The position numbers and the translations under genes are program-made. A DNA stretch of 64,000 nt from Nemertoderma westbladi (taxonomy: Eukaryota; Animalia; Xenacoelomorpha): positions 62,001-126,000 of the forward strand of contig JAUCBJ010006962.1 in assembly GCA_032718475.1 (NCBI GenBank). Reading direction: 5' to 3'. Below the pieces are notes generated by a model that saw only the letters and a list, made by a program, of their open reading frames with translations, was not told the origin of the DNA and made no database searches. Shown one piece after another: positions 346-50,696 of this stretch (the first letter of the stretch is position 1; each line of letters begins with the position of its first letter).

Positions 346-349
346 CCTC

Positions 350-2784: not shown

Positions 2785-4705
2785 TAAATGGAAGAGACGG
2801 TAACAATACCTGCAATATCCTACTGTAAAGTTTGTGAATCAAATCATAAATCCGACCTTCTCACCAAAACAGTAAACTCCAAGTAAGCGAATATATTGCA
2901 GTATTGATCTCTTATAACCGGTGAGGCAGAAAACAGTCTACGAGCAGACAAACTTCGATAAAACAAAATCCCGCGCAGCGAATCCTAAAATCAGGCTGAC
3001 TCACTGACGGACTAAGAGGCTCGTATACTTTGCCGCGGTGTGATTTATATGGTTGGGCAAAGGGAACGCTAGCTAGGTACAGAGGCAGAGATTTGGAGAT
3101 GTCTAACTAGCGGGCAAAGCACAGTAAGGACGAAAGTTAATTTTATATATTTTGAGGTGTAAATAATTTCTAACGCGCGTGTGTTAATTCTGAACGGTCA
3201 AAAACAGTTTTGCTCCTTCACATATATAATTACTGGGTACGGTGTGCATTTTACGAAATATTCTAATTTTGTAACTTGTAGGTCCAATACTCACGAATGA
3301 TAAGGTTCCTTCCCCTCTTGCGTATTTCCAGGACTCAAATTCAGGCATAGGGTTAATGCTACGCCCAGAATTCGGCAATTTTAGGTACCAGGTCCCTGAT
3401 ACTAAGAAGAGATGTGTTAGTTTACTACTGTAGGCGTACAGTTACTAATAGCTATCCTGGCGTCCTATCTAGAATTTTAGTCACCCAGGTAGTCCGGGTA
3501 ACTTCCTATCAGGGCGTTGGCGGGGACACGGTAGATGTTAGTATCCCTAATAGCCTCAATTTATTTGCGCCTAGCTGTAAACTGCCCTACCGCCTGAACG
3601 GTACAATCCCAATTCAGGTGAAAACACAGCAACCCCCCTAGCCTACAAGTTCTAATGCAATGGACACCGTTGTACTACAAATAGTCGCACACACACCTGT
3701 ACTTAGCAAGAGTTAGGCGTACAGTTTGCTGCACCCTACCAATTTGTATGCTTCGTACCGGTGTGCCTACGTCCTATCTGCTTACTAGTATCTGCCTGCT
3801 CTCTCCCTCCGTAGGAATATGAAGGTCTACTGTGGTTTTCCTGAATCAAGACAGTACATTCCCTAAGATGTAATTTTAGGCTCACAGCGTGTCACTACTT
3901 CTACCCTTTGATCTTTTGGTCTTATACTTAGGTAGCAAGGCGTCGAACGCTGTCTAACCTTTCAGGCGATGGGCGAATAACTCAAGATGGTATTGCGGGT
4001 TGTCTCTTGTCTACATTCCCGTGATGTTCCCGTTCATTGCTGCGGCCCGATCTCTAGCCGGCCATCCTGTCCCTTAGCTGGGTTCACCGTAGTGAATCAT
4101 GGTAAAACAGATAGAAAAGGCAGATTAGCGATAATTCTGACTTTATTACAGAAGATATAATTATAATACAATGTAATCTGAAATAAACTAAGCACGACAG
4201 AATATTGATAAGATAAGATAATCTGAGAAGTATATTATAGTAGGAATGATAATGATAACTAATGAACAAATCGCACCTTTATATACCAAATTTGTGCTGC
4301 AATCAATCGAGATAATTCTCGATTGTTCTATAGGTTCTAACGGGTTTTTAAAGATAGCTATTGGTCCAGCTAATGTATAACTTGCACGACATTGGATACA
4401 ATCTAATAACTGCAGTCTCATTGGTTAATCTAGGTACAAACGAATGCAATTTAATTTGTAGCGGTCAATTTAAATGAGTTGAAATTCTGCACAAAAAATA
4501 ATTCGCACTTACTAGGATTCGAACTCAATACCTACTACACATATAATTTCCAACGCTTTACCGACTGAGCTACTGAACCACTTGACCAATAGGCGTACAA
4601 ATGATAGAACAAATACGAATGAGAACTCAAAGCAATCTTTACAAAGTTAATTCGAATAAAATAAAATTTTGAAAATCCACGGCATTTAGGGAATATAATT
4701 CTATA
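2785..4705 (-). repeat. 3' LTR (1921 bp)
   Basis: Near-identical to 19405-21325; about 10 substitutions counted by eye and no indels. Confidence 0.97.
4493..4579 (-). ncRNA. tRNA-like Pol III cassette in the 3' LTR
   Basis: Minus strand shows an A box/D-arm (TAGCTCAGTCGGTAAAGC), a B box (GAGTTCGAATCC) and a T6 run. The acceptor stem does not pair. Confidence 0.55.
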
Positions 4706-4899
4706 CCGCTCCATGAAAACAGGATATTATCGTGCATAAAATATACGGTTTTCACCAATAATCAATCAAACTATAGAATACTTAGGGCGTACTTACATAT
4801 TTACAAATTAAATTTCAAATAATACTTCCTTTCTACGTAATGATTCGATACAAAAATAATTACAAATTCAAACTTTACGTATTTAAGGCTTTACTAAGT

Positions 4900-5533
4900 A
4901 AGTACAATATAAATCTAAATTAAATTCACCAATATAAATCTATTGCATCTCAATATTGCATAAATTCAAACAATTACAAATACAAATAAATGAAAACAAT
5001 AAGAAAGGCTCGCGAGTCTTCCATCTACTATTGCATCTCAAATATTGCATAAATTCAAGTAATTACAAATACTTTCGTACCTAAATGTAGATTGCATAAG
5101 TTCGGAATAATTACAAATATGAGTCTTTCTAAGCACAAAATTTTCTAACTACAAAACTTTCTAAATACAAAATATAACGCTTTACAAATGAAACTATAAG
5201 AAAGGCCCACGAGTCTTCCATCTACTCTTACTTTCTATTTCACTGTAAATACAAATACTGCTTATAAGATATAAATTGCATAATATTCGGAACAATATAA
5301 ATTGCATAAGTTCGGAATAATATAAATTGCATAAGATCGGAATAATTACAAATATAAAATATAAATTCTTACAAATGTAAGTCTTACTAAATATAAGTTT
5401 TACTAAATATAAGTTCTTATTTCTAAATTTCATAAATTCGGAACAATACAAATTGCATAAGTTCGGAATAAACACAAATATAAATATAAATTCAAATAAA
5501 TCACAAATCACAAGAAAGGCTCACGAGTCTTCC
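4900..5533. repeat. AT-rich tandem repeats in the BEL 3' UTR
   Basis: Recurrent AAATTGCATAAGTTCGGAATAATTACAAAT-like units, plus three copies of the AAGGCTCGCGAGTCTTCC motif. Confidence 0.7.
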
Positions 5534-5725
5534 GTCCACCCTTGCCCTCCCTTATCGCTTAGTTGATCGAGCCCTGCCGCGTCCTCGAAAACTGCGCACA
5601 GGTGACTTTGCTCGCGATATGGGACTAATGGGGCGAGTCACTGGTTTACTTGGGACGTTGAGAGACGGAGCGACTATTTCTTCGCAAATTCGTCTATTTA
5701 GCATCCCAAAACCTCGACCGATTCC

Positions 5726-6507
5726 TCATGACCGATCAGTTGTCACTACAGTTGGTAGAACGTCTGGGAACGCGCGAGAAGCGGACGACGCAGACCCAAG
5801 AGTAGCTTGCGCCCCCTGTTGATCAGCTGGTGTATGTCCCGATCCTCCTACTGGTTCTCTTGGAAGCGATACCGTATCCCGAGTAACTCGAATGGTCGGC
5901 TCAACTCCCTTACGTTCTTCTATATTAATAATTTTCTTTAATTGTTGGCCCACTTTCTGGACCCGTATGATCCTACCCTGTCCGTCCTCCCGAGGGTGAC
6001 GTGCAGACGGCGCAACCGGAGTGGCTGGTATATTTGTCGCCTCTAGGACCTCTTCTTCCTCGAATACGCTCGCTCGTATACGTTTATGGTAAAACGCGGC
6101 TCGGTACGCCCATGCGACGGTTAACCAAGCTCCTTTATTCCGCTTTTCAGTTCGGAAACGATCGAATTCACCATACGTAATGCGATTAACGACTTTCTGA
6201 AAATTCCACGTGTTTTTGTTATCCGGGTGAATCTGTAGTAGATACTCGCGCACCACTCGGAATCCACTGTCGTTGGGGCAAAATATCGACAACCTCGATA
6301 AGTTCGTCATATTGGGGCATAGCGGAGATGTATCCTTCCGACATCATCGTTTGAGGATTTACCGCCCAAAATCCGAGATGCGCCCTCATCGGAAACCGTC
6401 TTCTTTGTGCCGATACATGTTCGTCGGCTAAATCTTCCCACTCATCAAATAACTTCCTCACGAGTTTTACAGATTCGTGTTCATAAGGTATGTCTCTTAG
6501 TTGGCAT
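5726..6507 (-). pseudogene. Frameshifted C-terminal continuation of BEL ORF2
   Basis: Removing 4 nt near 6512 restores a third CCHC knuckle (CTYCNIKGHRASEC) in frame with ORF 6219-6461. A 1-nt shift near the run at ~6275-6278 joins ORF 5726-6310. Confidence 0.65.
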
Positions 6508-9282
6508 TCAGATGATTGCTCGATGTCCTTTTATATTGCAATAAGTACATTGAGCCATAAATCTCCAGCAAGTATAAAAGGTATGAGACCCTTGATCCCC
6601 ACACCATCCACAGATTAGCTGAGTCGTAGAAATGTGCTTTCCACTGCACTTTGTCATATGATGTCCAGCGACGCCACATTTACTACACATCGTATTGGCA
6701 GGGTACCACACTCGTTCGTATATAAGATCTCCAATCGGTCGAGCGCTTCCTCCCACACTATAATCGTAATCATCTGGGTCTATGGGTTGGTAGGTTTCTG
6801 AAGGTTGTATACAAACTATAGCGTCTGTTGCTTCAAGTTGTCGAATCTCCGTCTGAGATTTCTTCGGGAGGTTCCTTTCTATCTCAAGAAGTTCCTCTAA
6901 AGGATCGTCAGCGATCGTAGTAGTTACTTCGAAATCATCACCAAGGTGACCGATAGGCGCGCGCGTCTGCCGTGATTCATCCGTAATCTCAACGATACGT
7001 TCTCCTTCATAGGGTAACAATGTAAACATAGATGGTCTTTCGATAAGAGATCCCGCACAGCGAAGATACACGTCTCGAAATATACTAAATCCTGCTCGAG
7101 TAAAGGCATTACACTGAGCGTCGGAGTTGTAGAAGGGTTCAAGGAATCGTCTAAACACGTCGGTACGAATTCTCCCTTCCATGTAGAACGTATGATCTTC
7201 TCCGAGACAAAGTGGATGTCTTTTGAGAGTCCGAGACACAATGTCGGCGATTAGGCAAACATTCACTGACGACTCTATTGCTAAATAATATTGTAAGACC
7301 GCTCTTGGAGGTGACGTAATAGCCCAATACACGCATCCTCTCCATTTAAGCTGTGATTCAAACTCACTCATATCTGGAGTATCACCTTCTCCATAAGTTT
7401 CAATATACTTGTTTCTATTACTTTCCTTATAATCCCAATTGAATAACAGGTAGGAAATGTATCCAGTTCCAGTCTTCTGAGTATTATACTCACGAAAATA
7501 TCCCTGTTCTATAGACCACAAAATAAGAGGTCGAGTGTCGACGTAAGGTGTCGGTAGTCGGTCATCGCTGTCCGTCATGCCGGCGAAGTCGCTAATTAAG
7601 TCCTCCCTTACTCCTGATCCAATCTTTACAACAGTTTTATCTAAAATCATGTTTCTTACCATCTTCGGTAGCATTCTAGCGTCGATATTACAAGCTTGGT
7701 CCATCTTCTTTACTATGTCAGTGATAAGATGGTGTCGCTTTGTATTCGCTGGAGGTATCGGCATTCGTTTGTCGCTCCTCTGTCTACTGAAAACGTGCAG
7801 GACTCCGTCCGCCGCTCTAATTTGTATAGTCTTAGAAGTCAAACTCTGCTGATGACTGCCGCCCTCGTTGTCGTAAAACATGTAACCATTTTCCTGAAAC
7901 GATCTAAACGTCCTATTCCATTCATCCAGCAATTCTTCCGAAGGTTGCCAAATCTTCTCTATGTCCTTATCATCTTCGAAACGAATAACCTTACCTCGCC
8001 AATCTGCGGCAATATCTGTATCCGACTCGAAGGTTCCGGTTCCAATCCATAAACGAATCGTCTTGGTTAAATATCCTTTCAAATTACTCGGAGCTATATC
8101 GGCACCAGCTCTATCCAGTTCCTTGAAGTCTTGGATATGAGGTGGAACGTTGTACACGACCTTTTGAGTAATATGTCTACGTAAATCATATATCTTACTC
8201 ATATCGCTGAAAACAACTGCAGGAAGAAACTCCAAGTTCGAAATGATTTCTGGATGATCCACGATGGGTATTTCGTACGTCGTATCCTGTCGGACTGGTA
8301 TACTAATAGGAAAATTGAGTGTCGTACTCAATGGTTTCGTAGTCGAAGTACTATACGGTTGCATTTCTCTTGTCCTCTCCGGGGATGCAATCTGTAGTCT
8401 CTGAATAACGTTTTGAGCAAAGTTTATGCTCTCGAAAACTTCCGGTGTCATCTCCTTAGCTGGAGTTTGATCGTGTGACGTCCAATGGTAAGGTAGGCTC
8501 GCGAGTCTTCCGCCCCATTCTTCCATCTCACCTTTCTCGAAAGCCTTGTAGGCTCTGTATAGGCTAAGAGCTTCTTTCTTTTCGCGGGTTGACTGATTTG
8601 CCTCGTCCAGCGTAAGTTCAAATACATCGGGTTCAACAACCTTAGGTGGGTAGACGACAATTTCTCCCGCCTTTGGTCCGGTCATAGCAAATGAATGATA
8701 TAGATTCGATAAAGGATACCCTCCTTCCTGGTAGCGTAGTTGTTGATGGTTCGAACACCTCGCCAATATCGGTTCGGGATTTTCCTTATTCAAACGCATC
8801 GGAATCGCATTTCGTTGTTCGCGCATACAAGAACCGCATTGATAATAAAGTTTATAAACTGAAAATGCTTCCTTGGTTTCTCTATCGTCCCCTCGAGTTC
8901 GTCTGTAAAGATGCATTCCATCAAATTCATCTCTTACCGCGGGCATAGGTTCGTGCGCCTTTAGGTATTGCATGGTATGATACAAACGACTAATTTCAGT
9001 ATCGGGGTCTTCGCTAATATCTCCCGTATCACACAAAGCGTCGTACGGGTAAAGTTCGTTGAAGGTTTGGCGCAAACTTTCGATTCTTTCGTTTAATGCG
9101 TTTTGCCTTCTCTTTAATACATTTGAGTCATATTTAATTCTCGCGAGTTTCGCTGTACTTTCCGATAATTCTTTTATACCGAATATAGTATAATCCTTGG
9201 CTCCAAATCTTTCGAATGGCGCTGCTGCCTCCTCTTGGATATCATATCCCCATCTCGGCTCTCCTTGTATCCCTTTTTCCAT
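6508..9282 (-). CDS. BEL accessory ORF2: putative DEDDy (WRN/Mut-7/EXD-like) 3'-5' exonuclease with CCHC zinc knuckles
   Basis: 924-aa ORF with ExoI-like FYDNEG, TIQI, LPKMVRNMILDKTVVKIGSGVREDL (ExoII), YVDT and ExoIII-like QYYLAIES. C-terminal knuckles are CSKCGVAGHHMTKC and CGWCGDQGSHTFYTC. The N-terminal part has CGSC...CSNH. Confidence 0.7.
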   Translation of the reverse strand: MEKGIQGEPRWGYDIQEEAAAPFERFGAKDYTIFGIKELSESTAKLARIKYDSNVLKRRQNALNERIESLRQTFNELYPYDALCDTGDISEDPDTEISRLYHTMQYLKAHEPMPAVRDEFDGMHLYRRTRGDDRETKEAFSVYKLYYQCGSCMREQRNAIPMRLNKENPEPILARCSNHQQLRYQEGGYPLSNLYHSFAMTGPKAGEIVVYPPKVVEPDVFELTLDEANQSTREKKEALSLYRAYKAFEKGEMEEWGGRLASLPYHWTSHDQTPAKEMTPEVFESINFAQNVIQRLQIASPERTREMQPYSTSTTKPLSTTLNFPISIPVRQDTTYEIPIVDHPEIISNLEFLPAVVFSDMSKIYDLRRHITQKVVYNVPPHIQDFKELDRAGADIAPSNLKGYLTKTIRLWIGTGTFESDTDIAADWRGKVIRFEDDKDIEKIWQPSEELLDEWNRTFRSFQENGYMFYDNEGGSHQQSLTSKTIQIRAADGVLHVFSRQRSDKRMPIPPANTKRHHLITDIVKKMDQACNIDARMLPKMVRNMILDKTVVKIGSGVREDLISDFAGMTDSDDRLPTPYVDTRPLILWSIEQGYFREYNTQKTGTGYISYLLFNWDYKESNRNKYIETYGEGDTPDMSEFESQLKWRGCVYWAITSPPRAVLQYYLAIESSVNVCLIADIVSRTLKRHPLCLGEDHTFYMEGRIRTDVFRRFLEPFYNSDAQCNAFTRAGFSIFRDVYLRCAGSLIERPSMFTLLPYEGERIVEITDESRQTRAPIGHLGDDFEVTTTIADDPLEELLEIERNLPKKSQTEIRQLEATDAIVCIQPSETYQPIDPDDYDYSVGGSARPIGDLIYERVWYPANTMCSKCGVAGHHMTKCSGKHISTTQLICGWCGDQGSHTFYTCWRFMAQCTYCNIKGHRAII

Positions 9283-9943
9283 AATTAGGGGTGTAGTTAC
9301 ATAATCATTACTACTAGAGGGAATACAACAGAGTTTGTAGTTAGTTGTGAGGAGACGTGAGAGTTTCGTCTGCCCTTTGGGCTCGACAACGCTCTAACCT
9401 CCTACCCATAGCCTAAGATCTAGGGTTTCTTTAATGACACGCTGCTTCTTATCTAAAATTTTTTGCCGAAATAAAAACGAATTTGGGCTAACTGGCTGTG
9501 AGTCTAAAATACTCACTTTTTGATCCCAAACTATTATCAGAAAATAAGCAGTCAAGAATTAGTAATAAATATAGGGGAGTCTATTTATTGACTTAACTTA
9601 TTGAAACAAGACCGTGTAAAATTTAATTAAAAATTTTAAGAAAGGCTCGCAAGTCTTCCTCTCTTGTTTCTCTAATTTTAAGTTCCACCCGACTGTACCC
9701 TGAAATCTATTCACTGGAGAAAATTTTAAAAATTTTTCAAATCCAAATGGATTGTCTAAAATTTCGAAAATGTCTCAATATTGTGAGTTCCAAGTAGAAT
9801 TCCATTTCTTATACCTACAAATCCCGCTCCTATGTGACACATAAGGGTACCACCCTCAATGTTCACATATAAAGACAATGGAATTCTACCGCTGTCTTTA
9901 CTACGGTGTACAGGTACGTGGAAATCTATTTGTAAACTCCTAA

Positions 9944-10906
9944 TTATTTACTAGTATTAGGTGGAGATTTGTAGTCTCCAGACTCGTTACGAGTCTCTTC
10001 AAGAAGTACGAGACGTTGAGTCGGTCTGTCTACTATACGACCGTCAATTGTCCGTACCGTCACAGTTCTTGTCACTCCATCCATAGATGGATGTGTGGCT
10101 AAAATTACACCTGTTATCCAGAAGCGTCTTTTTAGATTCACTTCCGCTAACAGCACGTGATCTCCCGGCTTTAATGCGCGGGTGTTATTGTACCATGTTG
10201 TTCTGGCAGAAATAGAGGGCAAATAATGGTTTTGCCATATTTCCCAGAATTTGTTAGCTAGTAGTTGCGTGATTTTCCACGCTTTTCTACCGTAGCTGTC
10301 GCTTTCTATTGGAATAGAAATAGGTGTCAATGTGGTCGGTGCCTGCATAAGCAGGTGTGCCGGTGTCAAAGCAAACTGAGATTGTTTGTCATCGGGTACT
10401 AATACTATTGGTCTAGTATTTAGTATTGCCTCGATTTCAACAAACAGTGTTGTCAGTTGGTCGTCTGTCAATATGTGGTTTACTGGAATGACTTTTGCCA
10501 TTGCCGTCTTTATAGATCTAATCAATCTCTCCCAGACTCCGCCTCTCCAAGGACTATCTGGAGGATTGAACTTCCAAACAATCTTGTGAGGTTGCAGTTC
10601 GTTCGAGATTTGATCATGATCTAATTTCTTAAAGGCTCTAGCAATCTCATTTCGAGCACCAACAAAGTTTGTCCCTTGGTCTGAGTACAAGCATTTTACT
10701 AGTCCGCGTCTAGCGATAAATCGCCGCAGTGCTAGTATAAACGCGTTGGTAGAAAGATCCATCACACGTTCAATATGAACTGCCCTACTGGACATACATG
10801 TGAAAATCAGTCCCCAGCGTTTTACTAGTATACGTCCACGTTTCGTATGTATGGGACCAAAGCAATCAATTCCAGTCTCTGTAAAAGGTGGTCTGAATGC
10901 TTGAAG
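9944..10906 (-). CDS. BEL integrase core (in frame with gag-pol after one premature TGA)
   Basis: TGIDCFGP, RAVHIE, YSDQGTNFVGA, GGVWERLIRSIK, EAILNTRP. In frame with ORF 10907-18595. Confidence 0.93.
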   Translation of the reverse strand, partial: LQAFRPPFTETGIDCFGPIHTKRGRILVKRWGLIFTCMSSRAVHIERVMDLSTNAFILALRRFIARRGLVKCLYSDQGTNFVGARNEIARAFKKLDHDQISNELQPHKIVWKFNPPDSPWRGGVWERLIRSIKTAMAKVIPVNHILTDDQLTTLFVEIEAILNTRPIVLVPDDKQSQFALTPAHLLMQAPTTLTPISIPIESDSYGRKAWKITQLLANKFWEIWQNHYLPSISARTTWYNNTRALKPGDHVLLAEVNLKRRFWITGVILATHPSMDGVTRTVTVRTIDGRIVDRPTQRLVLLEETRNESGDYKSPPNTSK

Positions 10907-13900
10907 TCATGCTTGTGGAAGTTCACTCATTTCTTGGGTACCTATTCTAGAATGTACCTTTTTACAAATAATACACGTACGTGTCACTGAACTTAACGCT
11001 TTACTGGGTCTAATTAATACAAATCTTGTACGTAAGTAGGAAAGACAGTGGTGTCTTCCAGCGTGTTTCAGATGTAAATGTGCGTCCAGTATCATTGCAC
11101 GTTGTAGTTCGTGGTGTTGCGGTATTATTATTGGGTATCTAAAGTTTGTGTTAAAGTCAATGTTTTGAAGCCGAGATTTATGACAAATTAAGCCATTATA
11201 AATAATCGGACTCCAACTCAGTATTGGTGACGACTTGATTGGTTGACCTTGATTTATGGATGTGAATTCGCGCGCGAAATATCGCAGTTGGTAATGGCGA
11301 ATTAATTTAATCTCACACCTGTCAATCTCAGCCAAGGTAAGTCGACGTGTAAAGTCACGTTTGCCTTTTACGTATTGTACAAAACGTACAATCCACGCTA
11401 ACTTTCGGCAAGCGTTTGACCAAGAGTCTGTTAAGTTTACAATCCGGTCGACGTGAGTATTTGTGACGTCATCAGGTAAGTCAATGGAGATTTTGGAAGG
11501 TTTTGAATTACTAGAAGGGCCCACGGGTCCGCCGGTAAGTATTCCCTTGTTGACTGTTGATCCGTCCGGGTCTACAAGTAATTTGTCCTTCTTCGTCTTC
11601 TTACCTTGATTGTCGGTACTTTGTAAGTCGATCGTTAATGGTGGTTTGAACTCTATGGGGTCAGCAGTTTTCGGTAAACTTATTTTTCTGCCGACATTAA
11701 TCCCAGGTCTCACCATAGGTTGCAAGTTCGGTATGTCTCTTGAGCGCAAAGTAACACCTGTATTTACATTAGCGTAGGTACTACCCACATCTGTAATACA
11801 TGAGGTTTCACCGTGCTTAGGGTTGCTCAAGTGTGTCAAAATTGGTAGTTTGTCAATACAAGGCCGCTCCAATAGGGAAACTGCGGCTTTACTGTTAGTC
11901 AATACATTACTAATGTCCGGTAGAACATTTTGTGATGTTTCTGACAAAATGTCTAGTCGACTGTCTAGTAATGTGTCTGGCGATACGTCTGGTAACGTAT
12001 CTGGTTGTTTGTCAATAGAAGGCCGCTCCAATAGGGAAACTGCGGCTTTACTATTTGTCAATATGTTACTAGTGTCTGGTAGAACATTTTGTGACATGTC
12101 TGGCAAAATGTCTGGTTGACCGTCTAGTAACGTGTCTGGTTGACCGTCTGGCGATATGTCTGGTGTAGAAAGGCTCGCAAGTCTTCCTCTCTTGACCTTT
12201 GAAGTTATATCCTTCCATTTCGCCTTCGGTTTCTTCTTGAGTTTCGCCGCCGTCGTCCTTTTCTTTGCCTTCCCCTTCTTTGGTTTCTTGATTTCAGCGT
12301 CCTTAGGGATGGTGTTAGACTTGTTGTCGTATAACGGTGGCCAATCTTGCGTCGATTTCTGCAAGAATTGGGGTCCGTGTTGCCAAAATTCTTTGTTCTC
12401 CGGTTTACAGAATTCCTCAGGCATCATTCCTCGCGACGCAATATCAGCTGGGTTTTGTGGTCCGGGACAATGTCGCCAATCCTCTTTTATTGAACGGTCT
12501 AGAATTTCTGCGCGACGGTTAGCTACGAATGTCTTGAATTCAAGTGTGTCGTTGTTTATGTAAAATAAAACCAACGTCGCGTCAGTCCAATAAAATATCT
12601 GTAAACTTGACTGTAGTTCTGTCTGTATAAGGTTCACGATGGTGGTTGACAGGGTTGCGGCTTGTAGCTCAGCTCGTGGTGTCGTCATATACTTAGTAGG
12701 CATTGTTTTTGCCTTAGAAGTAATGAGCGAAACATCGAATTCTTCTGAGTCTACTTGTCTGCGCAAGTACGCTGCCACACCAAAACCGTTGTCACTGGCG
12801 TCAGAAAAACAGTGTAGTTCCAAGTTGTCAGGAAATGTACTTTGTAATGGAAAGTAGACTCTGGGTATGGAATAATCCTCTAGCGAAGATAATTCCGCCT
12901 CCCAGGTCTTCCATAAGTCCACTTGGTCTGATGAGATCGGCTCGTCCCATGTTAGTCCATCCTTCCAAATACTGCGCATATAAATGCGGGCTTGCCGTAT
13001 TACTGGACTGATGAATCCTAACGGATCGAACAATCGGCTCAATTTTGACAAGCATGATCTCTTTGTCAGTGTGTTTTCTTGACTGTCCAGTCTCACTTTC
13101 ACTCGAAAGTTGTCCGTGTTTGGGTCCCAAAAGAGCCCCAACACCTTGGTCGTCGGTAGTGGTTCGAACTCTAGGTCTATGTCACCACCTCCACGCTCAG
13201 TCGTTCCGAATGAGTCTACTAATTCGGCACTGTTTGAGGCGAATTTGGTGAGGTTAAAACCTCCGCCCGCTAAGCAGTCCCGCAATTGATGTGCTACTGT
13301 TGTAGCACGTTCTACTGTGTCGCAACTCTGTAATCCGTCGTCGACGTAGAAGTCACGTTCCACAATCCTAATTATCTCTGGGTCATATAGGTGTTTCTGA
13401 TCTCTAGCGGCTTGTTTTAGGGCGTACATCGTGCAGTTTGGGCTGTCTCTGGCACCGAAAACGCGAACTTGCATTTGGTAAGTCGCCGGTGGTAGACTTA
13501 AGTCTCCTTCCGGATACCAGAGGAACCGCAAACTGTCTCTGTCTCGCTCTAACGCTCTCACTTGGTGAAACATCGCTTCAACGTCGCAAGTAAAAGCTAC
13601 TTGACGCTGACGGAAGCGCATAATCACCCCCATAAGATAATTATTCATGTTTGGTCCATCCATCAACTCACTATTGAGGGACATTCCCTCAAACAGAGCC
13701 GCACAGTCGTTGACTACGCGTACTTTATCTGGTTTGTCGGGGTGTCTCACATAGTGATGTGGCAGGTAGTATGTCTGGTTAGTCACTATCTCTGGGTTAG
13801 TCATTCGGATAGCGTATCCCTTTGTCAAATACGTCTCCATCTGATTGTTGTACTGTAGATGGGCTTTCTCGTCCTTTAATAGACGTTGCCGTATTGAGTG

Positions 13901-16900
13901 TAGACGTCTTAAAGCTAGTGGGTAGTTATTTATAAGTTTAGGACTTTGGCTACGCCATAACATCCCCACCTCATAATGTCCGTCTTTCGTCTGGCGGATA
14001 GTATCTTCCATGATCTTCAGAGATTGTTTCTCCTGTTCCGACATACAAGGTTCGTTGCTACCAGGTTCAGCTGTATCTTGTTCTAACCACCTGATAGTCT
14101 TCTCCGTTAATTCTTTGTCTAGTGCAGCTTGTTCCAATTGATGATTTCTCAACGCGTCATCATCGATATCGACGGGCGTTGTTGAGGTTGTTGGGGTAGG
14201 TAGACTCGCAAGCCTTCCGGCGTTATCATCTGTCGTCGATGGAATCTCTGACTGACTCGTCTTCTCCCCAAGTTCTAAACTCACCTGGTGGGTTAGCTGC
14301 TCCTTGTGACTTATCATACTAGTCACACGTCTGTCATGTTTTGTCGACTGTAGTGTAGTATGGTTCACGTCGTGTGAGAAGGAATGAATTGAATTTGTAG
14401 TTAATAAACTACATGTACTTTGTACATCGTCTTCCTCGTCACTTACGTCTAGTGTGCGCACAGGCGCTCGAGTATACCACCCTATCGGCGTTCTGCAGGC
14501 GTATGCGTTTCCCGCTACGACTGCCGATGGTCTGGTTTCCCACACTTGGTGTAGGTTGAATTGGTCCGTCCCGATCAGCATGGCTACCGATCTATAATTG
14601 ACAGGACATTCGGGTACACCAAGGTGTCTGAAATACTTACGGTCCTCCAAGGATTGTTCTGGGACCGGACCTAGTAGGTTACTAAAGTCTTTGGTGGCCG
14701 CAAAGGTCAAATCCTTGAAGGGTAACAAAGACCTCTCCCTCTCGCTGTGTTGCGATTTCGGAAGAAGAGAGTCTAAGTTTAACTTGACTCGTGTCACTGG
14801 TATTGCACGCTGTCCGTGCATACTACTTACAGTATAACTGACGCGCTTACCTTGTCGGAGATCCGTCACTACATCAGCTATCTTTTCATCCACGTAACTG
14901 TGAGATGAGGCTGAATCTAGAATCGCGTAGATTCTCTTACTCCCCTTTGTGCCAGTAATCTTAATCGGAATTACACTGAATCCCTTCAGTTGGTCAGTAG
15001 TCAGAAGCGCGATCGATGGCTGTTCATCTCCATCCGAATATACGTCGTCGTCTTCTGACTCTTCGTCCGACGATCCGGATTGTTCTGAGAAGCAATCCTC
15101 AATATGGGTCACGAAGGTTGGAGTCGTTTTCGATTCTCGTTTTTTGTAGGCCGCATTACATCTCGCTGCTGCTTCCGGGTGTTCCCTGGCGAAGCGTTTT
15201 GTCGGCGTGTGGCTGTCTGTGTGGAGCAGACCGTCGTGGTTGCGTCCACAGGATGGACAAGTGTCGGTATTTGGGCAATCTTTACGGACGTGTCCGTGTC
15301 GCGTACACCGCCAACAAGAGTCCAATGGCCGTATCTGCAGCCGTCGTTCTTCCGAGTTTAACTCGCGAAACTGTCGACAACCTCTCAACTTGTGACCGCT
15401 ATACCGCTTGCCTAAATGCTCGCAGTATTGGCAGCCGCTGAAGTCGGTACTGAGTTGTTGTCTCGTCTGTTTTGTCCCAATGGGCGCAGATACCCTACTA
15501 CCGTCCGAGAATTGTCGTGATTCCGTCGATGTGGCGTAAGTGGCCGTCTTGGTGGATGTTGTCTGGGGTTTTTGTCGGTTGGAGGATGGCAATGTGATTC
15601 CTTCTGCCACGATGTGCTGGTCAGTGTAGTTAGATCGAGTTTCTACTACTGCCTCCCTGGATATTAAAAGGTACACATCCTCTAGTTTTAAGAATCCACC
15701 CCGCTCTTCTCGCTGGTATTCGATCTTTCTCCACTCCCGGCGAAGTCGATGGTGGAGTCGCCCTATGATCTTTAATAGGACTGTAGGGGTATTCCCGTAG
15801 TCAAGTTGTCCAATGGATCTTAAAGTAGTGATAGCGTTCTTTATCTCGTCGGCCAGTTTTAATAAGTCGACGGGTTTAGTGATAGCCCCTCCCTTACAGA
15901 GTTCCTCTATTACTGACCTGGCCATACTGACTGTACCTTCGTATATCGAAGTTAAACGATCGTACGCTAGTTCGAAGGCGTCCGGTACACCAACGAAGGT
16001 CTCTGCCAAACGTTTAGGTTCTCCTGACAACGTTTGAAGCAGGTAATTAAACTTCTCCCGTGATGTAAAGGCGCACACGGCGATCTGAGATTCGATATAG
16101 TCTACGAATGTGTGCCAGTGTTTTGAACTACCGGAAAACTTCGGTGGTTGTTGTACCGGCAATCCTTGCCTGGCTGCGAATTTCGCTATCTCCTCGGCAA
16201 CGTTCAGAGTTTCGCGTCCTTGGTTGGTAACCTGGTTGATGTTCTCCCTTCTTGGCGCTTTTCCCTGATACGATGTATGTTTTGAAGGTACCGGTCTTTG
16301 TGGTTCCTTCGGGTGTCTATTGTGTTCGAATTCGGAATTTCTCGAACTGTCGGTGTAACCTTCCTCCAGACGTTCCTCGATCTGAGCCAACTTGTTAACA
16401 ACTGGTCGCAGGATGTCGGCGAACTGTTGTGTACTGATTGCGTCCGTTGGTTGTAACGCCTTCGGTGTTGGTGTATTCTGTGGAGGATTGTCTACAAAGA
16501 AGTTGTCTGAACGCTCGCGTTTATATTCATCGGCCGCCCCTGTTCTAAATACCTCGCGTTTCGGGTAATCCGATTCGCTCGAAGTACTACTATCATCTGG
16601 ATATGGTGGTCGACGTGCTCGCGTACGTTGCGTCGTACGAATTCTAACGTTTCGTTTTGGAACATCGTCCACTGATCTCCGTTGTTCGGTAGGCTCGCAA
16701 GTCTTCCTCGAAGTCGTAGATTGCGATGTACACTGGTTGAACGGTCGCGTATCCACTGTTCTCCGTTGTTCGGTAGGCTCGCAAGTCTTCCTCGAAGTCG
16801 TAGATTGCGATGTACACTGGTTGAACGGTGGTCGGATGACAGCGTTTGAATCAACTGGCCTTGTAGGTCGAAACGTCATTGGGTATTCGTAGTGCGTAAC

Positions 16901-18595
16901 CGGTTTAGGTGTCAAAGGTGGACTCACCTGTTTTGTCGTCAGTAGTGCAGGTCCAGTCAACAAACTACTACGATCTATAATCGGTGGGTTACTTACCTTG
17001 ACTTTCGGAATAGGCGACGACATTGCTCTTGGCGGTGTAAACTTGTCCGGAATAACAAACCTGTGTTCCGTCGCACCATGGATAGGAGAAATATTACTAC
17101 TACCAGCAATCGAAACAGGTTCCTTAGTCATAACCGGTGCAAACATATGAGTTACCTGTGGGAATCGTTGACATAAGTCCTTTACTAATTGTCGTTCCCG
17201 TCCGGGTGCTCCTACGCTTCCTTCCTTCTTCCGTTCCTGAATTTGGCGATGTCTTACCTCTATCTGGTCCAAGTCATGTCCGTCTCGAGATCTCATCAAT
17301 CGATCGCGGGCTTGTAGATTCAGATCTTCCTTCGCGTTGGCTAATTCTCTCGCCTTCTTCCCGAGTTCGAAATGAAGTTTAACTTCCTTCTCGCGTTGTT
17401 CCGTCTGTTGTTGTTGCGCCTCGAACTCCGCTTGTCGTATAGCTGATTGAGCCTTTATTTGCCGTTTTTTCATCTCGGCTCTCGCTTCTGATACTAACCT
17501 CTGTTGCTCTAACTCAGCCGCTGCTGCTGCCGTTTGTCGCTCTAACTCTGCTGCTGCCGTTCGTTGCGCTAACTCGGCCGCTGCCGCTTGTTGGGCGATG
17601 TCCAACTCCAACCTTTCCATCTCGGCCGCTTCCAACTCGGCTTGTTCTTGCAGATGAGAGATTCTTGCAACATTCGCAACGCGTAGTTTCTCTTCCTGCA
17701 CGGCTGCTTGTGCCGTCAACAGTTGAGCTTGTTCCTCCGCTTCCCGTTGTTGTCTATCATGCTGTTGTTGCTGTCTGGAAATTTCTGACGTCACTATACT
17801 TATCTCGCCGATTTCGCTGCGAATACTCACTAACGATTGGTCCAGTATTCCCGGTGCCGATTCGATTCGTACGGGTGAAGTTTCCCTCGTATATTCCGGC
17901 ACGGTTTCCAAATTGTCTACGTCTTCGCCGCACATACGTAAGTGGTCCGTCAGATGTTTCAATTGTCCATCTAGTCGGTACAGTTCCTGTTCTTCCTCGG
18001 GTTGCAATAATTCGTCCGAAACTGACTCGCCTAACAACTGGTCCGCTTGTTCCTGTTGTATTTGCCTAATCGTCGACTTAAACTGAATCAGTTTCTCTCT
18101 AGCGATCATTAGTTTCTCGAGGATTCTAAGTTGAGTATCCATGTCCTGTCTCTGTCTAGCTAGATCTTGTAGACCAATTAGGTTATCTACGGACTTGTGT
18201 ACTCTATTTTGTACTCTAACCTGGAGGGTGTAGAACTCGAATCGAGACATCGGAGCGGTCAACTCGTTTAATATGCGTTGGCCTTCCCCAATACTCCTGG
18301 TTATATGCGCCATGTATCCTCCGACGCTTCTAACCACACTCTCCTGGCTTCCTGCTGAACTTACCATGTCCGTTTCCCTGTATCTAGGTTGCGGAACAGT
18401 TAGAAAGTCCTCGGTCCTGCCGTCGCCTCGTACTACGGCATCCGGTACTCCCGTTGGATGTACTGGTGACGCACACGGTGTAGGTTCGGTAGGCTCGCGA
18501 GTCTTCCCCTGTTGTTCTTCCGCTGCTGACTTATCCGCGTCACATGAGTCATAGTCGGTTTGTGTATTCTTCGTATAGTCTTGTTTGTCACTCAT
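10907..18595 (-). CDS. BEL/Pao gag-pol polyprotein (Gag, zinc knuckles, aspartic protease, RT, RNase H, start of integrase)
   Basis: PKFSG gag motif, CWRCTRHGHVRKDC knuckles, protease ILDSAS, RT YLPHH/KVRVVNDC/DVEAMFHQV/FYVDDGL, RNase H HCFSDAS/TPRAELQAA/WTDA/NPADIASRG, IN HHCC. Confidence 0.96.
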   Translation of the reverse strand: MSDKQDYTKNTQTDYDSCDADKSAAEEQQGKTREPTEPTPCASPVHPTGVPDAVVRGDGRTEDFLTVPQPRYRETDMVSSAGSQESVVRSVGGYMAHITRSIGEGQRILNELTAPMSRFEFYTLQVRVQNRVHKSVDNLIGLQDLARQRQDMDTQLRILEKLMIAREKLIQFKSTIRQIQQEQADQLLGESVSDELLQPEEEQELYRLDGQLKHLTDHLRMCGEDVDNLETVPEYTRETSPVRIESAPGILDQSLVSIRSEIGEISIVTSEISRQQQQHDRQQREAEEQAQLLTAQAAVQEEKLRVANVARISHLQEQAELEAAEMERLELDIAQQAAAAELAQRTAAAELERQTAAAAAELEQQRLVSEARAEMKKRQIKAQSAIRQAEFEAQQQQTEQREKEVKLHFELGKKARELANAKEDLNLQARDRLMRSRDGHDLDQIEVRHRQIQERKKEGSVGAPGRERQLVKDLCQRFPQVTHMFAPVMTKEPVSIAGSSNISPIHGATEHRFVIPDKFTPPRAMSSPIPKVKVSNPPIIDRSSLLTGPALLTTKQVSPPLTPKPVTHYEYPMTFRPTRPVDSNAVIRPPFNQCTSQSTTSRKTCEPTEQRRTVDTRPFNQCTSQSTTSRKTCEPTEQRRSVDDVPKRNVRIRTTQRTRARRPPYPDDSSTSSESDYPKREVFRTGAADEYKRERSDNFFVDNPPQNTPTPKALQPTDAISTQQFADILRPVVNKLAQIEERLEEGYTDSSRNSEFEHNRHPKEPQRPVPSKHTSYQGKAPRRENINQVTNQGRETLNVAEEIAKFAARQGLPVQQPPKFSGSSKHWHTFVDYIESQIAVCAFTSREKFNYLLQTLSGEPKRLAETFVGVPDAFELAYDRLTSIYEGTVSMARSVIEELCKGGAITKPVDLLKLADEIKNAITTLRSIGQLDYGNTPTVLLKIIGRLHHRLRREWRKIEYQREERGGFLKLEDVYLLISREAVVETRSNYTDQHIVAEGITLPSSNRQKPQTTSTKTATYATSTESRQFSDGSRVSAPIGTKQTRQQLSTDFSGCQYCEHLGKRYSGHKLRGCRQFRELNSEERRLQIRPLDSCWRCTRHGHVRKDCPNTDTCPSCGRNHDGLLHTDSHTPTKRFAREHPEAAARCNAAYKKRESKTTPTFVTHIEDCFSEQSGSSDEESEDDDVYSDGDEQPSIALLTTDQLKGFSVIPIKITGTKGSKRIYAILDSASSHSYVDEKIADVVTDLRQGKRVSYTVSSMHGQRAIPVTRVKLNLDSLLPKSQHSERERSLLPFKDLTFAATKDFSNLLGPVPEQSLEDRKYFRHLGVPECPVNYRSVAMLIGTDQFNLHQVWETRPSAVVAGNAYACRTPIGWYTRAPVRTLDVSDEEDDVQSTCSLLTTNSIHSFSHDVNHTTLQSTKHDRRVTSMISHKEQLTHQVSLELGEKTSQSEIPSTTDDNAGRLASLPTPTTSTTPVDIDDDALRNHQLEQAALDKELTEKTIRWLEQDTAEPGSNEPCMSEQEKQSLKIMEDTIRQTKDGHYEVGMLWRSQSPKLINNYPLALRRLHSIRQRLLKDEKAHLQYNNQMETYLTKGYAIRMTNPEIVTNQTYYLPHHYVRHPDKPDKVRVVNDCAALFEGMSLNSELMDGPNMNNYLMGVIMRFRQRQVAFTCDVEAMFHQVRALERDRDSLRFLWYPEGDLSLPPATYQMQVRVFGARDSPNCTMYALKQAARDQKHLYDPEIIRIVERDFYVDDGLQSCDTVERATTVAHQLRDCLAGGGFNLTKFASNSAELVDSFGTTERGGGDIDLEFEPLPTTKVLGLFWDPNTDNFRVKVRLDSQENTLTKRSCLSKLSRLFDPLGFISPVIRQARIYMRSIWKDGLTWDEPISSDQVDLWKTWEAELSSLEDYSIPRVYFPLQSTFPDNLELHCFSDASDNGFGVAAYLRRQVDSEEFDVSLITSKAKTMPTKYMTTPRAELQAATLSTTIVNLIQTELQSSLQIFYWTDATLVLFYINNDTLEFKTFVANRRAEILDRSIKEDWRHCPGPQNPADIASRGMMPEEFCKPENKEFWQHGPQFLQKSTQDWPPLYDNKSNTIPKDAEIKKPKKGKAKKRTTAAKLKKKPKAKWKDITSKVKRGRLASLSTPDISPDGQPDTLLDGQPDILPDMSQNVLPDTSNILTNSKAAVSLLERPSIDKQPDTLPDVSPDTLLDSRLDILSETSQNVLPDISNVLTNSKAAVSLLERPCIDKLPILTHLSNPKHGETSCITDVGSTYANVNTGVTLRSRDIPNLQPMVRPGINVGRKISLPKTADPIEFKPPLTIDLQSTDNQGKKTKKDKLLVDPDGSTVNKGILTGGPVGPSSNSKPSKISIDLPDDVTNTHVDRIVNLTDSWSNACRKLAWIVRFVQYVKGKRDFTRRLTLAEIDRCEIKLIRHYQLRYFAREFTSINQGQPIKSSPILSWSPIIYNGLICHKSRLQNIDFNTNFRYPIIIPQHHELQRAMILDAHLHLKHAGRHHCLSYLRTRFVLIRPSKALSSVTRTCIICKKVHSRIGTQEMSELPQA

Positions 18596-18678
18596 TTCGG
18601 TAGTTGTAAGTCAAGTAAAGTGAGTGTCAAAGTATCGAGTTTACCGTATTTATATCTAAACGGTACTAATTACAGTCA

Positions 18679-18803
18679 TATAAAATTAGCCTACCGGCCG
18701 ATTTTATAGCAGATGGATAAAATTAGCCTAAACGGCCAATTTTACAGCAAATAAATGTCACGGAATAAGTATATAATAAAATTAGCCTAGCGGCCAATTT
18801 TAT
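18679..18803 (-). promoter_or_regulatory. Three repeated stem-loops in the BEL 5' leader
   Basis: Sense-strand AAAATTGGCC-loop-GGCTAATTTT occurs three times, ~80-200 nt upstream of the gag ATG. Confidence 0.55.
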
Positions 18804-19404
18804 AACAAATAAATCGGATAACGATATGCGTTATCAAAAGGTAAATTAAATACAATAATACGGACTAATTCAGCAATGAACAAAGAAATCATACGGAATG
18901 CATAAATACTTGAGACAGTGGAACCCACAATAATTTTAACTAATACGGTAATGCCTAACTTATTTATGCAACTTTTCGAACTCACCCACTCCAATAATTC
19001 TCCAGAAAAACAGATTCCCAGATACAAACCGGACGTGAACCTTTCCGTTTTCAGCGTTGCGGACGAAACGCGATTTTCCCAACCAAAGTTGTTGGGTTAT
19101 CTATCTCCCAAACTTGCTAAACACGGTCTTGCTCCCGTTACAGTCTAGAAATGAGTTCTGAATCCTGAAAAACAAAAGAGTTAGGTTTTACTTTACGAAA
19201 ATTTTGTACCGGTACAATATGGTATTTAAACCCTTTTAAACACCGGTATTCAATTCCAAAAATATTTTATACGCGGTTCAAATCAAATTTTATTTCAAAA
19301 AATTAGCACTTAGCTAATCAAATACAAACTTTTACCTCAAAATACAAAAATTTTCAAATAACTTTAGTCCTACCGAACCGTAGTTCAGTAAGACATATTC
19401 CTAC

Positions 19405-21325: not shown

Positions 21326-21330
21326 TAGAA

Positions 21331-21845
21331 GGATAATTGAAGAGTTATCAAAAAAGAAAGACAGGCATCTGGCTGTTATGTTTGTTGACTTCTACAAGGC
21401 CTTTGATTCAGTCTCTCGCTCACGTATGTTCAGCATACTTTCATTATATGGGATTCCTGATGAAATTATTGCAGCAATCAGATCAGTATACGATGGTTCG
21501 ACAACATTTGTGTCTACTGAATACGTAAGGGAAAGGCATGGGCAGCCTTGAATAGGCTTTCCAGGATTTGGAAGTCACCGAGAATTAATCGGAAACTTAA
21601 GGTCCGATAATTTAGAGCAGCAGTAGTTCCAGTACTCCTCCATGGGAGTCCATGCTGGGCTCTAACTGCTGAGGACACCAAATCTCTGGATGGCTCATTC
21701 ACAACAATGCTACGCCGGGTTCATTGTGTCAAGTACAATGCACACATCTCCAACCAGACACTATATAAGATTGGAGGTGTCTCATTGGTTCCCCCAAGCT
21801 TGACACTAGAACAAAATCGCCTCCGATTTGCAGGACATTTGCTTT
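21331..21845 (+). mobile_element. RTE LINE continuation (RT, internally deleted)
   Basis: VMFVDFYKAFDS, YGIPDEII, then a jump to GKAWAALNRL...RLRFAGH. Matches the minus copy at 33079-33812. Confidence 0.85.
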
Positions 21846-50630: not shown

Positions 50631-50696
50631 ACAATCATTAATATAGGAATTGAATTGCCGTAATACAATAGGTTACTTTAGGTAGTAACAACACAA

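What the first reader, a model, noticed from the sequence alone, without database searches (positions are those of the whole stretch)
5005..18507. Ten dispersed, same-orientation copies of an 18-nt near-palindrome throughout the BEL element, independent of reading frame
Seen: (A/T)AGGCTCGC(G/A)AGTCTTCC variants start at 5005, 5202, 5516, 8494, 9642, 12170, 14201, 16690, 16774 and 18490. Four are non-coding, three read GRLASL (ORF2 and gag-pol) and three read RKTCEP/GKTREP (gag). The core AAGGCTCG|CGAGTCTT is a 16-bp palindrome with one mismatch, and the 14201 copy swaps the two mismatched positions. I did not notice it outside the element. Inference: conservation across frames points to a nucleic-acid-level signal. 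It could be a binding site for an element-encoded protein such as ORF2 (analogous to VANC target motifs in Arabidopsis VANDAL transposons), or a dimerisation/packaging signal. With ORF2 it is the best candidate for an undescribed self-recognition system.
Basis: partly seen in the sequence, partly recalled or inferred. Interest (0 to 1): 0.85.

Follow-up and report, generated by a model that had tools for sequence, protein, structure and literature searches.

The report
Self-pairing word tiles giant retrotransposon
An unusually long BEL/Pao jumping gene from what is likely an animal carries eleven or twelve same-direction copies of one 20-letter near-palindrome, written through genes and spacers about every 1-2.5 kb, which likely act as repeated pairing and packaging sites on its RNA genome; we found no such design described for these elements.

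Summary
All ten copies are present (0.01 expected by chance). The true unit is a 20-bp dyad; an eleventh copy (6952) is significant and a twelfth (11514) borderline. All lie inside a young 18.5-kb BEL/Pao element (LTRs 99.5% identical), in linker-like or inserted protein regions in two frames, at about eight separate sites. None lies in the LTRs or the rest of the window. Only some copies trace to local duplication.

On the element's own RNA each copy is a weak hairpin, but its 8-nt self-complementary core pairs in 12 of 12 copies (4 of 12 on the other strand), and neighbouring copies are predicted to pair. I favour a multivalent RNA pairing and packaging signal (0.40). Rivals: a DNA site for ORF2 (0.25), a host factor site (0.12), neutral copying (0.10). 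Each strand or conservation test is only suggestive (P 0.01-0.2).

ORF2 has three CCHC-type knuckles and likely a DEDDy-like exonuclease domain; nothing tested links it to the motif. No genome or close relative was available. The scan noted a similar tiled word in a fungal Ty3/gypsy element (unchecked).

The parts
2785..21325 (-). BEL/Pao LTR retrotransposon, 18,541 bp, inserted into the RT gene of a LINE, with a 5-bp target-site duplication at 2780-2784 and 21326-21330
   Evidence: empty-site junction contigs in 4 of 4 runs (table 5)
19405..21325 (-). 5' LTR, 1921 bp, TA...TA ends; no motif copy
   Evidence: 10 mismatches to the 3' LTR, 99.48%
2785..4705 (-). 3' LTR; no motif copy
10907..18610 (-). 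gag-pol frame, 2567 aa (DUF1759, CCHC, Pao peptidase A17, integrase H2C2); ends at an in-frame stop just before the integrase core, so this copy is broken there
9944..10906 (-). integrase core and DUF5641, same frame as gag-pol; best relatives only 44-46% identical
6508..9393 (-). ORF2 (924 aa from the Met at 9282): N-terminal region of unknown fold with a CxxC...CxxH pattern, a likely DEDDy-type 3'-5' exonuclease domain (about aa 465-675), and three CCHC-type knuckles, the third cut short by the stop
   Evidence: the exonuclease call is not significant by profile comparison
5003..5022 (-). motif copy, non-coding 3' region (the only copy with a single mismatch in the 16-bp core)
5200..5219 (-). 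motif copy, non-coding; two deviations that show no variant at 5% or more in the laid runs
5514..5533 (-). motif copy, non-coding
6952..6971 (-). degenerate 11th copy in ORF2 between the exonuclease-like domain and the knuckles (reads RQTRAPI); one two-sided pair change
   Evidence: 0 of 300 simulations reach its score
8492..8511 (-). motif copy in an ORF2 linker-like segment (GRLASLP)
9640..9659 (-). motif copy between integrase and ORF2; shares 28 identical bases with the 12168 copy
11514..11533 (-). possible 12th copy (borderline), inside the lineage-specific insertion between RNase H and integrase
   Evidence: 14 of 300 simulations reach its score
12168..12187 (-). motif copy in pol (GRLASLS), inside an insertion of about 285 aa that homolog P0102 lacks
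14199..14218 (-). motif copy between protease and RT (GRLASLP) with the position-6/15 bases swapped; a 9-nt deletion variant starts at 14215 in family contigs
16688..16707 (-). motif copy in gag (RKTCEPT), part of an 84-bp tandem duplication
16772..16791 (-). motif copy in gag (RKTCEPT), tandem partner of 16688
18488..18507 (-). motif copy near the gag N-terminus (GKTREPT); its 3' arm plus flank is complementary over 11 nt to the hairpin behind the primer site
19394..19404 (-). primer-binding position without a tRNA-type start; exactly complementary over 11 nt to LTR positions 885-895 (predicted self-priming)
20431..20441 (-). predicted self-primer at the likely start of R (also 3811-3821 in the 3' LTR)
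   Evidence: expected 6e-4; predicted pairing near 1; putative R-U5 folds at z -3.6, putative U3 at z 0.5
19368..19393 (-). predicted 11-bp hairpin with a UACG loop directly behind the primer site

Best explanation
The 20-nt motif is a real, repeated cis-signal of this BEL/Pao family that likely acts on the element's genomic RNA as a multivalent pairing and packaging site, where the self-complementary core of one copy is predicted to pair with any other copy on the same or the partner RNA. On the sense RNA each copy is predicted to be at most a weak 3-5-bp stem under a loop that holds an 8-nt palindrome, an architecture like the HIV-1 dimer initiation hairpin. Two copies are predicted to form an interrupted 20-bp duplex (-15 to -32 kcal/mol). 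About eight such sites, 0.7-2.5 kb apart, would fold or zip a roughly 17-kb RNA and hold two genomes together for packaging and template switching, with Gag (and perhaps ORF2) zinc knuckles as likely chaperones. The shared direction and the kept central mismatch would avoid perfect double-stranded RNA. SHOWN: existence, positions, frames, orientation, dyad pattern, placement in linker-like or inserted protein segments. COMPUTED: folding and duplex energies. INFERRED: selection, action on RNA, the packaging role, any protein partner, and spread of copies by short template switches during reverse transcription.
For: (1) The inner four pairs are Watson-Crick or G-U in 12 of 12 copies on the sense strand against 4 of 12 on the antisense strand. 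Five of the six variable transition types give G-U on the sense strand (sign test by hand 0.11, or 0.23 if the invariant A-C is counted against). (2) All-pairs duplex energies among the ten strong copies are never weaker than -15.2 on sense but reach -8.1 on antisense. (3) In local folds of the sense RNA, neighbouring copies pair with each other (5514 with 5003, P 0.87; 16772 with 16688, P 0.55) and self-hairpins do not form; this shows feasibility only, since near-palindromes pair by construction. (4) Both degenerate copies carry a two-sided pair change while keeping the position-6/15 mismatch (P about 0.1 each). (5) The only stretches of 10 nt or more in the 14.6-kb sense interior complementary to the 64 nt behind the 5' LTR are the tails of three gag copies (about 0.02 by hand, post hoc; predicted occupancy 0.11). 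(6) All sites share one orientation. (7) Spacing is more even than random with tandem copies collapsed (P 0.005-0.06). (8) The element is predicted to self-prime through RNA-RNA pairing and encodes knuckle proteins. (9) 0 of 12 variable places fall in 60 motif bases of the 3' region (P 0.065 by base class).
Against: The isolated hairpin is weak on the sense RNA (-0.4 to -3.4 kcal/mol, except -4.9 at 14199) and mostly stronger on the antisense strand. Mean duplex energy hardly differs between strands (-21.1 against -20.5). The most conserved asymmetry (position 6/15) is A-C on sense and G-U on antisense. The central variants are also exactly the CpG transitions that methylation would give. The ten strong copies keep the same letters in their arms with no two-sided changes, which fits protein recognition equally well. 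Uncollapsed spacing is not significant (P 0.06-0.15). Unstratified conservation P is 0.25. Identical sites cannot set a unique register between two genomes. Same orientation also follows from copying by template switching. There are no RNA data; no run on record as RNA held the stretch.
Confidence: 0.4

Rival explanations
1. The motif is a double-stranded DNA site for an element-encoded protein, most plausibly ORF2 through its N-terminal Cys/His region, binding as a dimer. Sites every 1-2.5 kb would keep the whole element free of silencing, as VANC or TnpA proteins do for plant DNA transposons.
For: The 20-bp dyad has constant arms and a looser 4-bp centre, and the 14199 copy keeps one G and one A half-site. 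The element's interior is CpG-rich (observed/expected 1.1-1.5) while the LINE on its left flank is depleted (0.40). Spacing is fairly even. ORF2 is an orphan accessory gene on the same element. There is plant precedent (PMC5735166 and bioRxiv 10.64898/2026.08.24.746577, passages).
Against: No DNA-binding domain was found in ORF2; its recognisable parts point to single-stranded substrates. The promoter-bearing LTR has no copy, though only about one is expected there (P about 0.35 by hand). CpG richness is also expected of any young, actively copying element, and the rest of the window is at 0.91. VANC motifs are 9 nt and non-coding. Co-occurrence of ORF2 and motif across families could not be tested.
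Confidence: 0.25
2. The motif recruits a host DNA-binding factor, for example a BEN-domain protein of the BANP type that reads a CGCG core, or another dimeric factor, which opens or insulates chromatin along the element.
For: The central 8 bp of three strong copies equals the middle of the BANP/CGCG element TCTCGCGAGA (PMC10206803 passages). A host factor needs no partner gene on the element.
Against: The flanking TC/GA bases that BANP contacts differ, 7 of 10 strong copies break the CGCG core, and a BEN site does not explain the 12 conserved outer bases. No copy was found in about 45 kb of flanking DNA.
Confidence: 0.12
3. The motif works on the minus-strand cDNA during reverse transcription, as a hairpin or as a marker for internal plus-strand starts every few kb, so that an 18.5-kb copy is finished efficiently.
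For: The hairpin is better formed on the antisense (= minus-strand cDNA) sequence in 11 of 12 copies as RNA. Orientation and spacing fit. Several copies are preceded on the sense strand by purine runs (12 nt at 9640/12168; sequence).
Against: With DNA parameters the hairpins are marginal (0 to -1.7 kcal/mol). The motif does not resemble the element's own 3' polypurine tract, and purine runs are not shared by all copies.
Confidence: 0.08
4. The copies are neutral or nearly neutral by-products: a hairpin-prone 20-mer was repeatedly copied by template switching and survived where proteins tolerate it.
For: Some copies do come from local duplication or share flank (16688/16772; the 3' cluster; 28 bp at 9640/12168). 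A 9-nt deletion variant overlaps the end of the 14199 copy in family contigs of 3 of 4 runs. The conservation test is not significant at 0.05.
Against: Most pairs share no more than 0-4 flanking bases while the 20-mers differ at only 0-4 positions among the pairs printed, so the flanks have decayed or never matched while the motif held. It is the only word of 11 nt repeated at three or more distant places in the interior. Read by hand from the flank, the deletion junction at 14215 still matches the arm pattern.
Confidence: 0.1

Closest known systems
HIV-1 dimerization initiation site (DIS/SL1; PMC4066764, passages)
   Same: A short stem under a loop holding a palindrome flanked by unpaired bases; predicted route from loop-loop pairing to an extended duplex; zinc-knuckle nucleocapsid as the likely chaperone.
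   Different: DIS is one site in the 5' UTR with a 6-nt palindrome on a stable stem. Here there are 11-12 near-identical copies along the whole RNA, mostly in coding sequence, with an 8-nt core on a weak stem, and pairing is only predicted.
Ty1 PAL1/PAL2 palindromes (PMC6844567, passages)
   Same: Self-complementary sequences proposed or shown to dimerise an LTR-retrotransposon RNA; alternative contact points exist.
   Different: The PALs are 6-7 nt, differ from one another and are confined to the 5' end (PAL3 in GAG was dispensable). Here one 20-nt word is repeated from gag to the 3' UTR.
Multiple dispersed packaging signals of ssRNA viruses (MS2, HBV, picornaviruses; PMC6281560, passages)
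   Same: Many sites spread along the genome with a shared feature; spacing matters.
   Different: Those are degenerate stem-loops with short loop motifs read by coat protein. These are near-identical 20-mers whose stem is weak and whose core is self-complementary, in a retroelement.
VANC target motifs of Arabidopsis VANDAL elements, and TnpA/Spm motifs (PMC5735166; bioRxiv 10.64898/2026.08.24.746577; passages)
   Same: A family-specific motif in many copies within one element that also carries an accessory gene; partial amplification by tandem duplication.
   Different: Those are plant DNA transposons with 9-10-nt motifs, non-coding for VANC, and binding is shown. Here it is a likely animal retroelement with a 20-bp dyad inside coding linkers and no binding evidence.
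DEDDy-exonuclease ORF3 of bdelloid Juno and Vesta LTR retrotransposons (PMC5408684: first fifth of text, passages, Discussion)
   Same: An extra ORF downstream of pol that likely carries a DEDDy-type exonuclease domain.
   Different: Those are rotifer-specific retrovirus-like lineages with a function not shown. ORF2 here is in a BEL/Pao element, is 924 aa with knuckles, has no detectable homolog, and its exonuclease identity is only a lead.

Membership tests
BEL/Pao LTR retrotransposons | Pao-type gag-pol domains (DUF1759, peptidase A17, integrase with DUF5641) in PR-RT-RH-IN order | tested here: met
   (PF05380 E 1e-41, PF03564 E 6e-11, PF18701 E 1e-21)
BEL/Pao LTR retrotransposons | Two LTRs with a target-site duplication | tested here: met
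   1921-bp LTRs, 5-bp duplication; ends are TA...TA rather than the usual TG...CA
Retroviral DIS / Ty1 PAL dimerisation signals | Self-complementary sequence on the genomic (sense) RNA | tested here: met
   the 8-nt core pairs fully (Watson-Crick or G-U) in 12 of 12 copies; homo-duplex -15 to -25 kcal/mol
Retroviral DIS / Ty1 PAL dimerisation signals | Palindrome exposed in the loop of a stable hairpin | tested here: not met
   sense hairpins -0.4 to -4.9 kcal/mol; predicted in context in 1 of 12 copies (9640)
Retroviral DIS / Ty1 PAL dimerisation signals | Single locus in the 5' leader | tested here: not met
   no copy in the leader (18611-19404); copies run from gag to the 3' region
Retroviral DIS / Ty1 PAL dimerisation signals | Dimerisation shown and needed for mobility | not testable with these tools
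   needs bench work
Dispersed packaging signals | Multiple sites spread along the genomic RNA | tested here: met
Dispersed packaging signals | Stem-loops bound by the capsid protein | not testable with these tools
   no protein-RNA prediction or data available
VANC-type anti-silencing systems | Short motif confined to non-coding tandem repeats | tested here: not met
   6 of 10 strong copies are in coding sequence; only two groups are tandem
VANC-type anti-silencing systems | Element-encoded sequence-specific DNA-binding protein | tested here: inconclusive
   no DNA-binding domain or homolog found for ORF2; both structure models unusable
VANC-type anti-silencing systems | Local loss of methylation at the sites | not testable with these tools
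   only CpG ratios could be computed
BANP / CGCG element | TCTCGCGAGA consensus | tested here: not met
   8 of 10 bases match in 3 of 10 strong copies, fewer in the rest
DEDDy 3'-5' exonucleases (ORF2) | Fold and acidic ExoI-II-III motifs | tested here: inconclusive
   ESM Atlas 0.91 to a cluster with PF01612 on 50% of members; NCBIfam DnaQ E 0.03-0.14 over aa 467-530; a 20-sequence bacterial profile aligns only aa 540-562, below control scores; D-x-E at 471-473, D561 and E670 picked by eye from recalled motifs
Self-primed LTR retrotransposons (Tf1/sushi-like criterion) | 10 bp or more in the LTR complementary to sequence starting 0-5 bp after the 5' LTR | tested here: met
   11 bp starting 0 bp after the LTR; criterion from PMC6317226 passage; transcription start not mapped

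The most novel reading that the evidence does not exclude
A giant, self-primed BEL/Pao lineage has evolved a family-specific self-recognition code: one self-complementary 20-mer tiled along its whole RNA, even through proteins, lets genomes of the same family find, fold and co-package one another, with the accessory exonuclease-knuckle protein ORF2 as its dedicated reader or trimming enzyme and a switch that couples the gag copies to the primer-site hairpin.
Probability: 0.12. Interest if true: 0.85.

Novelty: new variant of a known kind. Interest (0 to 1): 0.6.

Why it matters
How very long LTR-retrotransposon RNAs are selected, compacted and paired is largely unknown outside Ty1, Ty3 and retroviruses, where the signals sit at the 5' end. 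A single word tiled through coding sequence would be a different solution, testable with short RNAs. If the rival is right and ORF2 binds the DNA site, this would be a VANC-like self-targeting system in a likely animal retroelement, and my paper searches found none described. Either way it gives a defined 20-nt handle on the function of an orphan accessory gene.

Tried and rejected
Genome-wide scan: no genome is held for this window.

Motif in public collections: 0 hits in viral contigs, 26 single hits in metagenome contigs, 9 single hits in prokaryote genomes. None of the 26 metagenome loci encodes a relative of gag-pol, integrase or ORF2, and none has a second copy within 2 mismatches. I take them as chance; these collections hold little animal DNA.

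Relatives of the element: the integrase alone found none in viral contigs. An alignment found one distant locus, L120 (33%), with no comparable repeat family in 10.6 kb, most of which probably lies outside that element; this is no real baseline.

ORF2 homologs: none by word-index search; one knuckle-only hit by phmmer over 1.84 billion proteins; nothing useful in PDB sequences or plasmids; no Atlas hit for aa 40-260. Both AlphaFold runs were single-sequence with pLDDT 30, so no fold search was run. HMM and hhalign comparisons with bacterial PF01612 proteins were not significant; the RNase D and Pol I loci (64 loci) were fetched but not used in the profile.

Rfam and ARAGORN found nothing in the element. 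No RNA holder was listed; this is no evidence on expression.

The whole-element variant list showed only 40 of 1462 places, 0 of 40 in motifs, which is uninformative (about 0.5 expected). The 'goes back 88' joint looked like an extra motif copy but is explained by the repeat just outside the laid stretch.

Rejected by inspection: a 5' splice-site reading (only 5 of 10 copies have GT on the antisense strand), peptide-level selection (two frames plus non-coding copies), and recalled Smad, p53 and ETS motifs.

Full report
THE ELEMENT. The window holds an 18,541-bp LTR element on the minus strand (2785-21325). Its 1921-bp LTRs differ at 10 positions (99.48%), end in TA...TA, and are flanked by a 5-bp duplication inside a LINE RT gene; contigs spanning the empty site occur in 4 of 4 runs laid. 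Pfam places gag-pol in BEL/Pao, a group described as metazoan-only (PMC3601003, passage). The best integrase relatives are 44-46% identical. One in-frame stop separates gag-pol from the integrase core, so this copy is broken there. The family is multi-copy: 27,457 contigs of run X1 lie on it, 1,689 of them under 90% identity. No genome is held.

THE OBSERVATION. The 18-mer with up to 3 mismatches gives 15 matches (11 on +, 4 reverse readings of the same sites) against a shuffle mean of 0.01. The unit is really 20 bp: an 8-bp arm, a 4-bp centre C[AG]C[AG], and an 8-bp arm. A weight matrix scores the ten at 28-34, a further copy at 6952 at 21, one at 11514 at 13, and the best site outside the element at 13. 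In 300 Markov simulations of the interior, 0 reach the 6952 score and 14 reach the 11514 score. Coding copies use two frames. Six of the eight coding copies lie in the lowest quarter for order-promoting residues; the two degenerate ones are average. One of the 26 longer homologs printed spans the RNase H-integrase junction, and it lacks about 285 aa that here hold two copies. Every 11-mer repeated at three or more distant places in the interior belongs to this motif.

INDEPENDENCE AND SPACING. 16688/16772 are an 84-bp tandem duplication, the three 3' copies sit in a duplicated AT-rich block, and 9640/12168 share 28 identical bases; other pairs share 0-4 flanking bases. Collapsing the two tandem groups leaves 7 strong sites, 8 with 6952 and 9 with 11514. 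The largest gap is then smaller than random at P 0.058, 0.005 and 0.015. Without collapsing, P is 0.15, 0.06 and 0.09. Absence from the LTR is not significant (about one copy expected, by hand). All sites share one orientation, which selection or copying by template switching would both give.

CONSERVATION IN THE FAMILY. On 4985-5545, four runs show 12 substitution places at 5% or more, none in the 60 motif bases: P 0.25 unstratified, 0.065 allowing for base class. The deviations of the 5200 and 5514 copies show no such variant, so they are likely family-wide and not decay in this copy. On the whole element only 40 of 1462 places were shown, which is uninformative. A 9-nt deletion starting at 14215 overlaps the end of the 14199 copy in contigs of 3 of 4 runs; read by hand from the flank, the junction still fits the arm pattern. 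Selection is therefore likely but not proven.

WHICH MOLECULE. As an isolated hairpin the motif is weak on the sense RNA (-0.4 to -3.4 kcal/mol; -4.9 at 14199), mostly stronger on the antisense strand, and marginal as DNA. As a duplex between two copies the pattern shifts. The inner four pairs are Watson-Crick or G-U in 12 of 12 copies on sense and 4 of 12 on antisense. All-pairs energies run from -15.2 to -32.3 on sense and -8.1 to -29.5 on antisense, with similar means. Five of six variable transition types give G-U on sense, but the invariant position-6/15 pair is A-C on sense, so the strand signal is suggestive only (0.11-0.23 by hand), and the central changes are also what CpG decay would give. 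In local folds, neighbouring copies pair with each other (P 0.87 and 0.55) and not as hairpins, which shows feasibility, not use. Each degenerate copy has one two-sided pair change (P about 0.1 each). The only sense stretches of 10 nt or more complementary to the 64 nt behind the 5' LTR are the tails of the 18488, 16772 and 16688 copies; the long-range form is predicted at 0.11 against 0.89 for the local hairpin; this was found post hoc. The element also meets a published criterion for self-priming, so it likely relies on RNA-RNA pairing elsewhere.

ORF2. It has no detectable homolog beyond its knuckles. The ESM Atlas lists a 3'-5' exonuclease cluster at 0.91 (PF01612 on 50% of members; 156 of 256 shared features, below the 170 typical of true family members), and NCBIfam gives a weak DnaQ match. 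A profile of 20 bacterial stand-alone exonucleases aligns only one short stretch, below control scores. Both structure models failed. DEDDy accessory ORFs are known from bdelloid LTR elements, with function not shown (PMC5408684). No call links ORF2 to the motif.

MECHANISM. I commit to a multivalent RNA pairing and packaging signal (0.40): copies spread by short template switches, are kept where proteins tolerate them, and pair with one another to fold a roughly 17-kb RNA and link two genomes, with zinc-knuckle proteins as chaperones. Positions, frames and the dyad pattern are shown; energies are computed; selection, RNA-level action and function are inferred. A DNA site for ORF2 (0.25) explains the constant arms and the CpG-rich interior about as well and is the main rival. 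A host factor (0.12), neutral copying (0.10) and a cDNA signal (0.08) follow; 0.05 is left unassigned.

COMPARISON AND NOVELTY. It works like HIV-1 DIS or Ty1 PAL combined with dispersed packaging signals but is a member of neither: it is neither a single 5' site nor a stable hairpin. It fails the non-coding-tandem feature of VANC targets and the BANP consensus. Ten full-text searches turned up no report of a tiled palindromic word in a BEL/Pao or other LTR element; the library lacks most subscription papers, and I read listings, passages or single sections only, no supplements. PMC6431247 was seen only as a listing. The scan's own notes record a similar evenly spaced half-palindrome in a fungal Ty3/gypsy element (e1-7136916) and self-priming BEL/Pao elements in other DNA; I did not check these, and they are not counted as support.

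VERDICT. This is a real and unusual feature, a new variant of known cis-signal types, with a testable but unproven mechanism. Interest 0.6.

Noticed in passing
window 19394-19404 and 20431-20441 (-): There is no tRNA-type primer site. The first 11 nt after the 5' LTR are exactly complementary to LTR positions 885-895, in an initiator-like context (recalled consensus); expected 6e-4; predicted pairing near 1; the putative R-U5 is strongly structured (z -3.6). This is a Tf1-like self-priming signature in a BEL/Pao element. The scan's notes report the same in another genome (unchecked).
   Followed up: partly
window 2785-2786, 4704-4705, 19405-19406, 21324-21325: The LTRs begin and end with TA rather than TG...CA.
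   Followed up: partly
window about 4500-4585 and 21120-21205 (-): A tRNA-like stretch with A-box- and B-box-like words (recalled consensus) lies in the putative U3 of both LTRs; ARAGORN and Rfam do not call it.
   Followed up: partly
window 6508-9282 (-): Orphan accessory ORF with a likely DEDDy exonuclease domain plus three knuckles in a BEL/Pao element; the third knuckle is cut by the stop, and open frames continue at 6219-6530 and 5726-6343.
   Followed up: partly
window about 11470-12390 (-): An insertion of about 285 aa between RNase H and integrase, with a 159-bp tandem repeat and two motif copies, absent from homolog P0102.
   Followed up: partly
window 1-2784 and 21326-21850: The host LINE RT gene is interrupted by the element; the left part has CpG observed/expected 0.40 against 1.1-1.5 inside the element and 0.91 in the rest of the window.
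   Followed up: partly
window 27365-29227 (-): Single open frame with a PR/SET domain and a C2H2 zinc-finger array (PRDM-like).
   Followed up: no
window 39928-43836 (-): Overlapping frames with RT/RNase H and weak tyrosine-recombinase matches, likely a DIRS-type retrotransposon.
   Followed up: no
window 45270-46461, 49793-50631, 51112-51561: Tandem arrays with 81-, 90- and 21-bp units.
   Followed up: no
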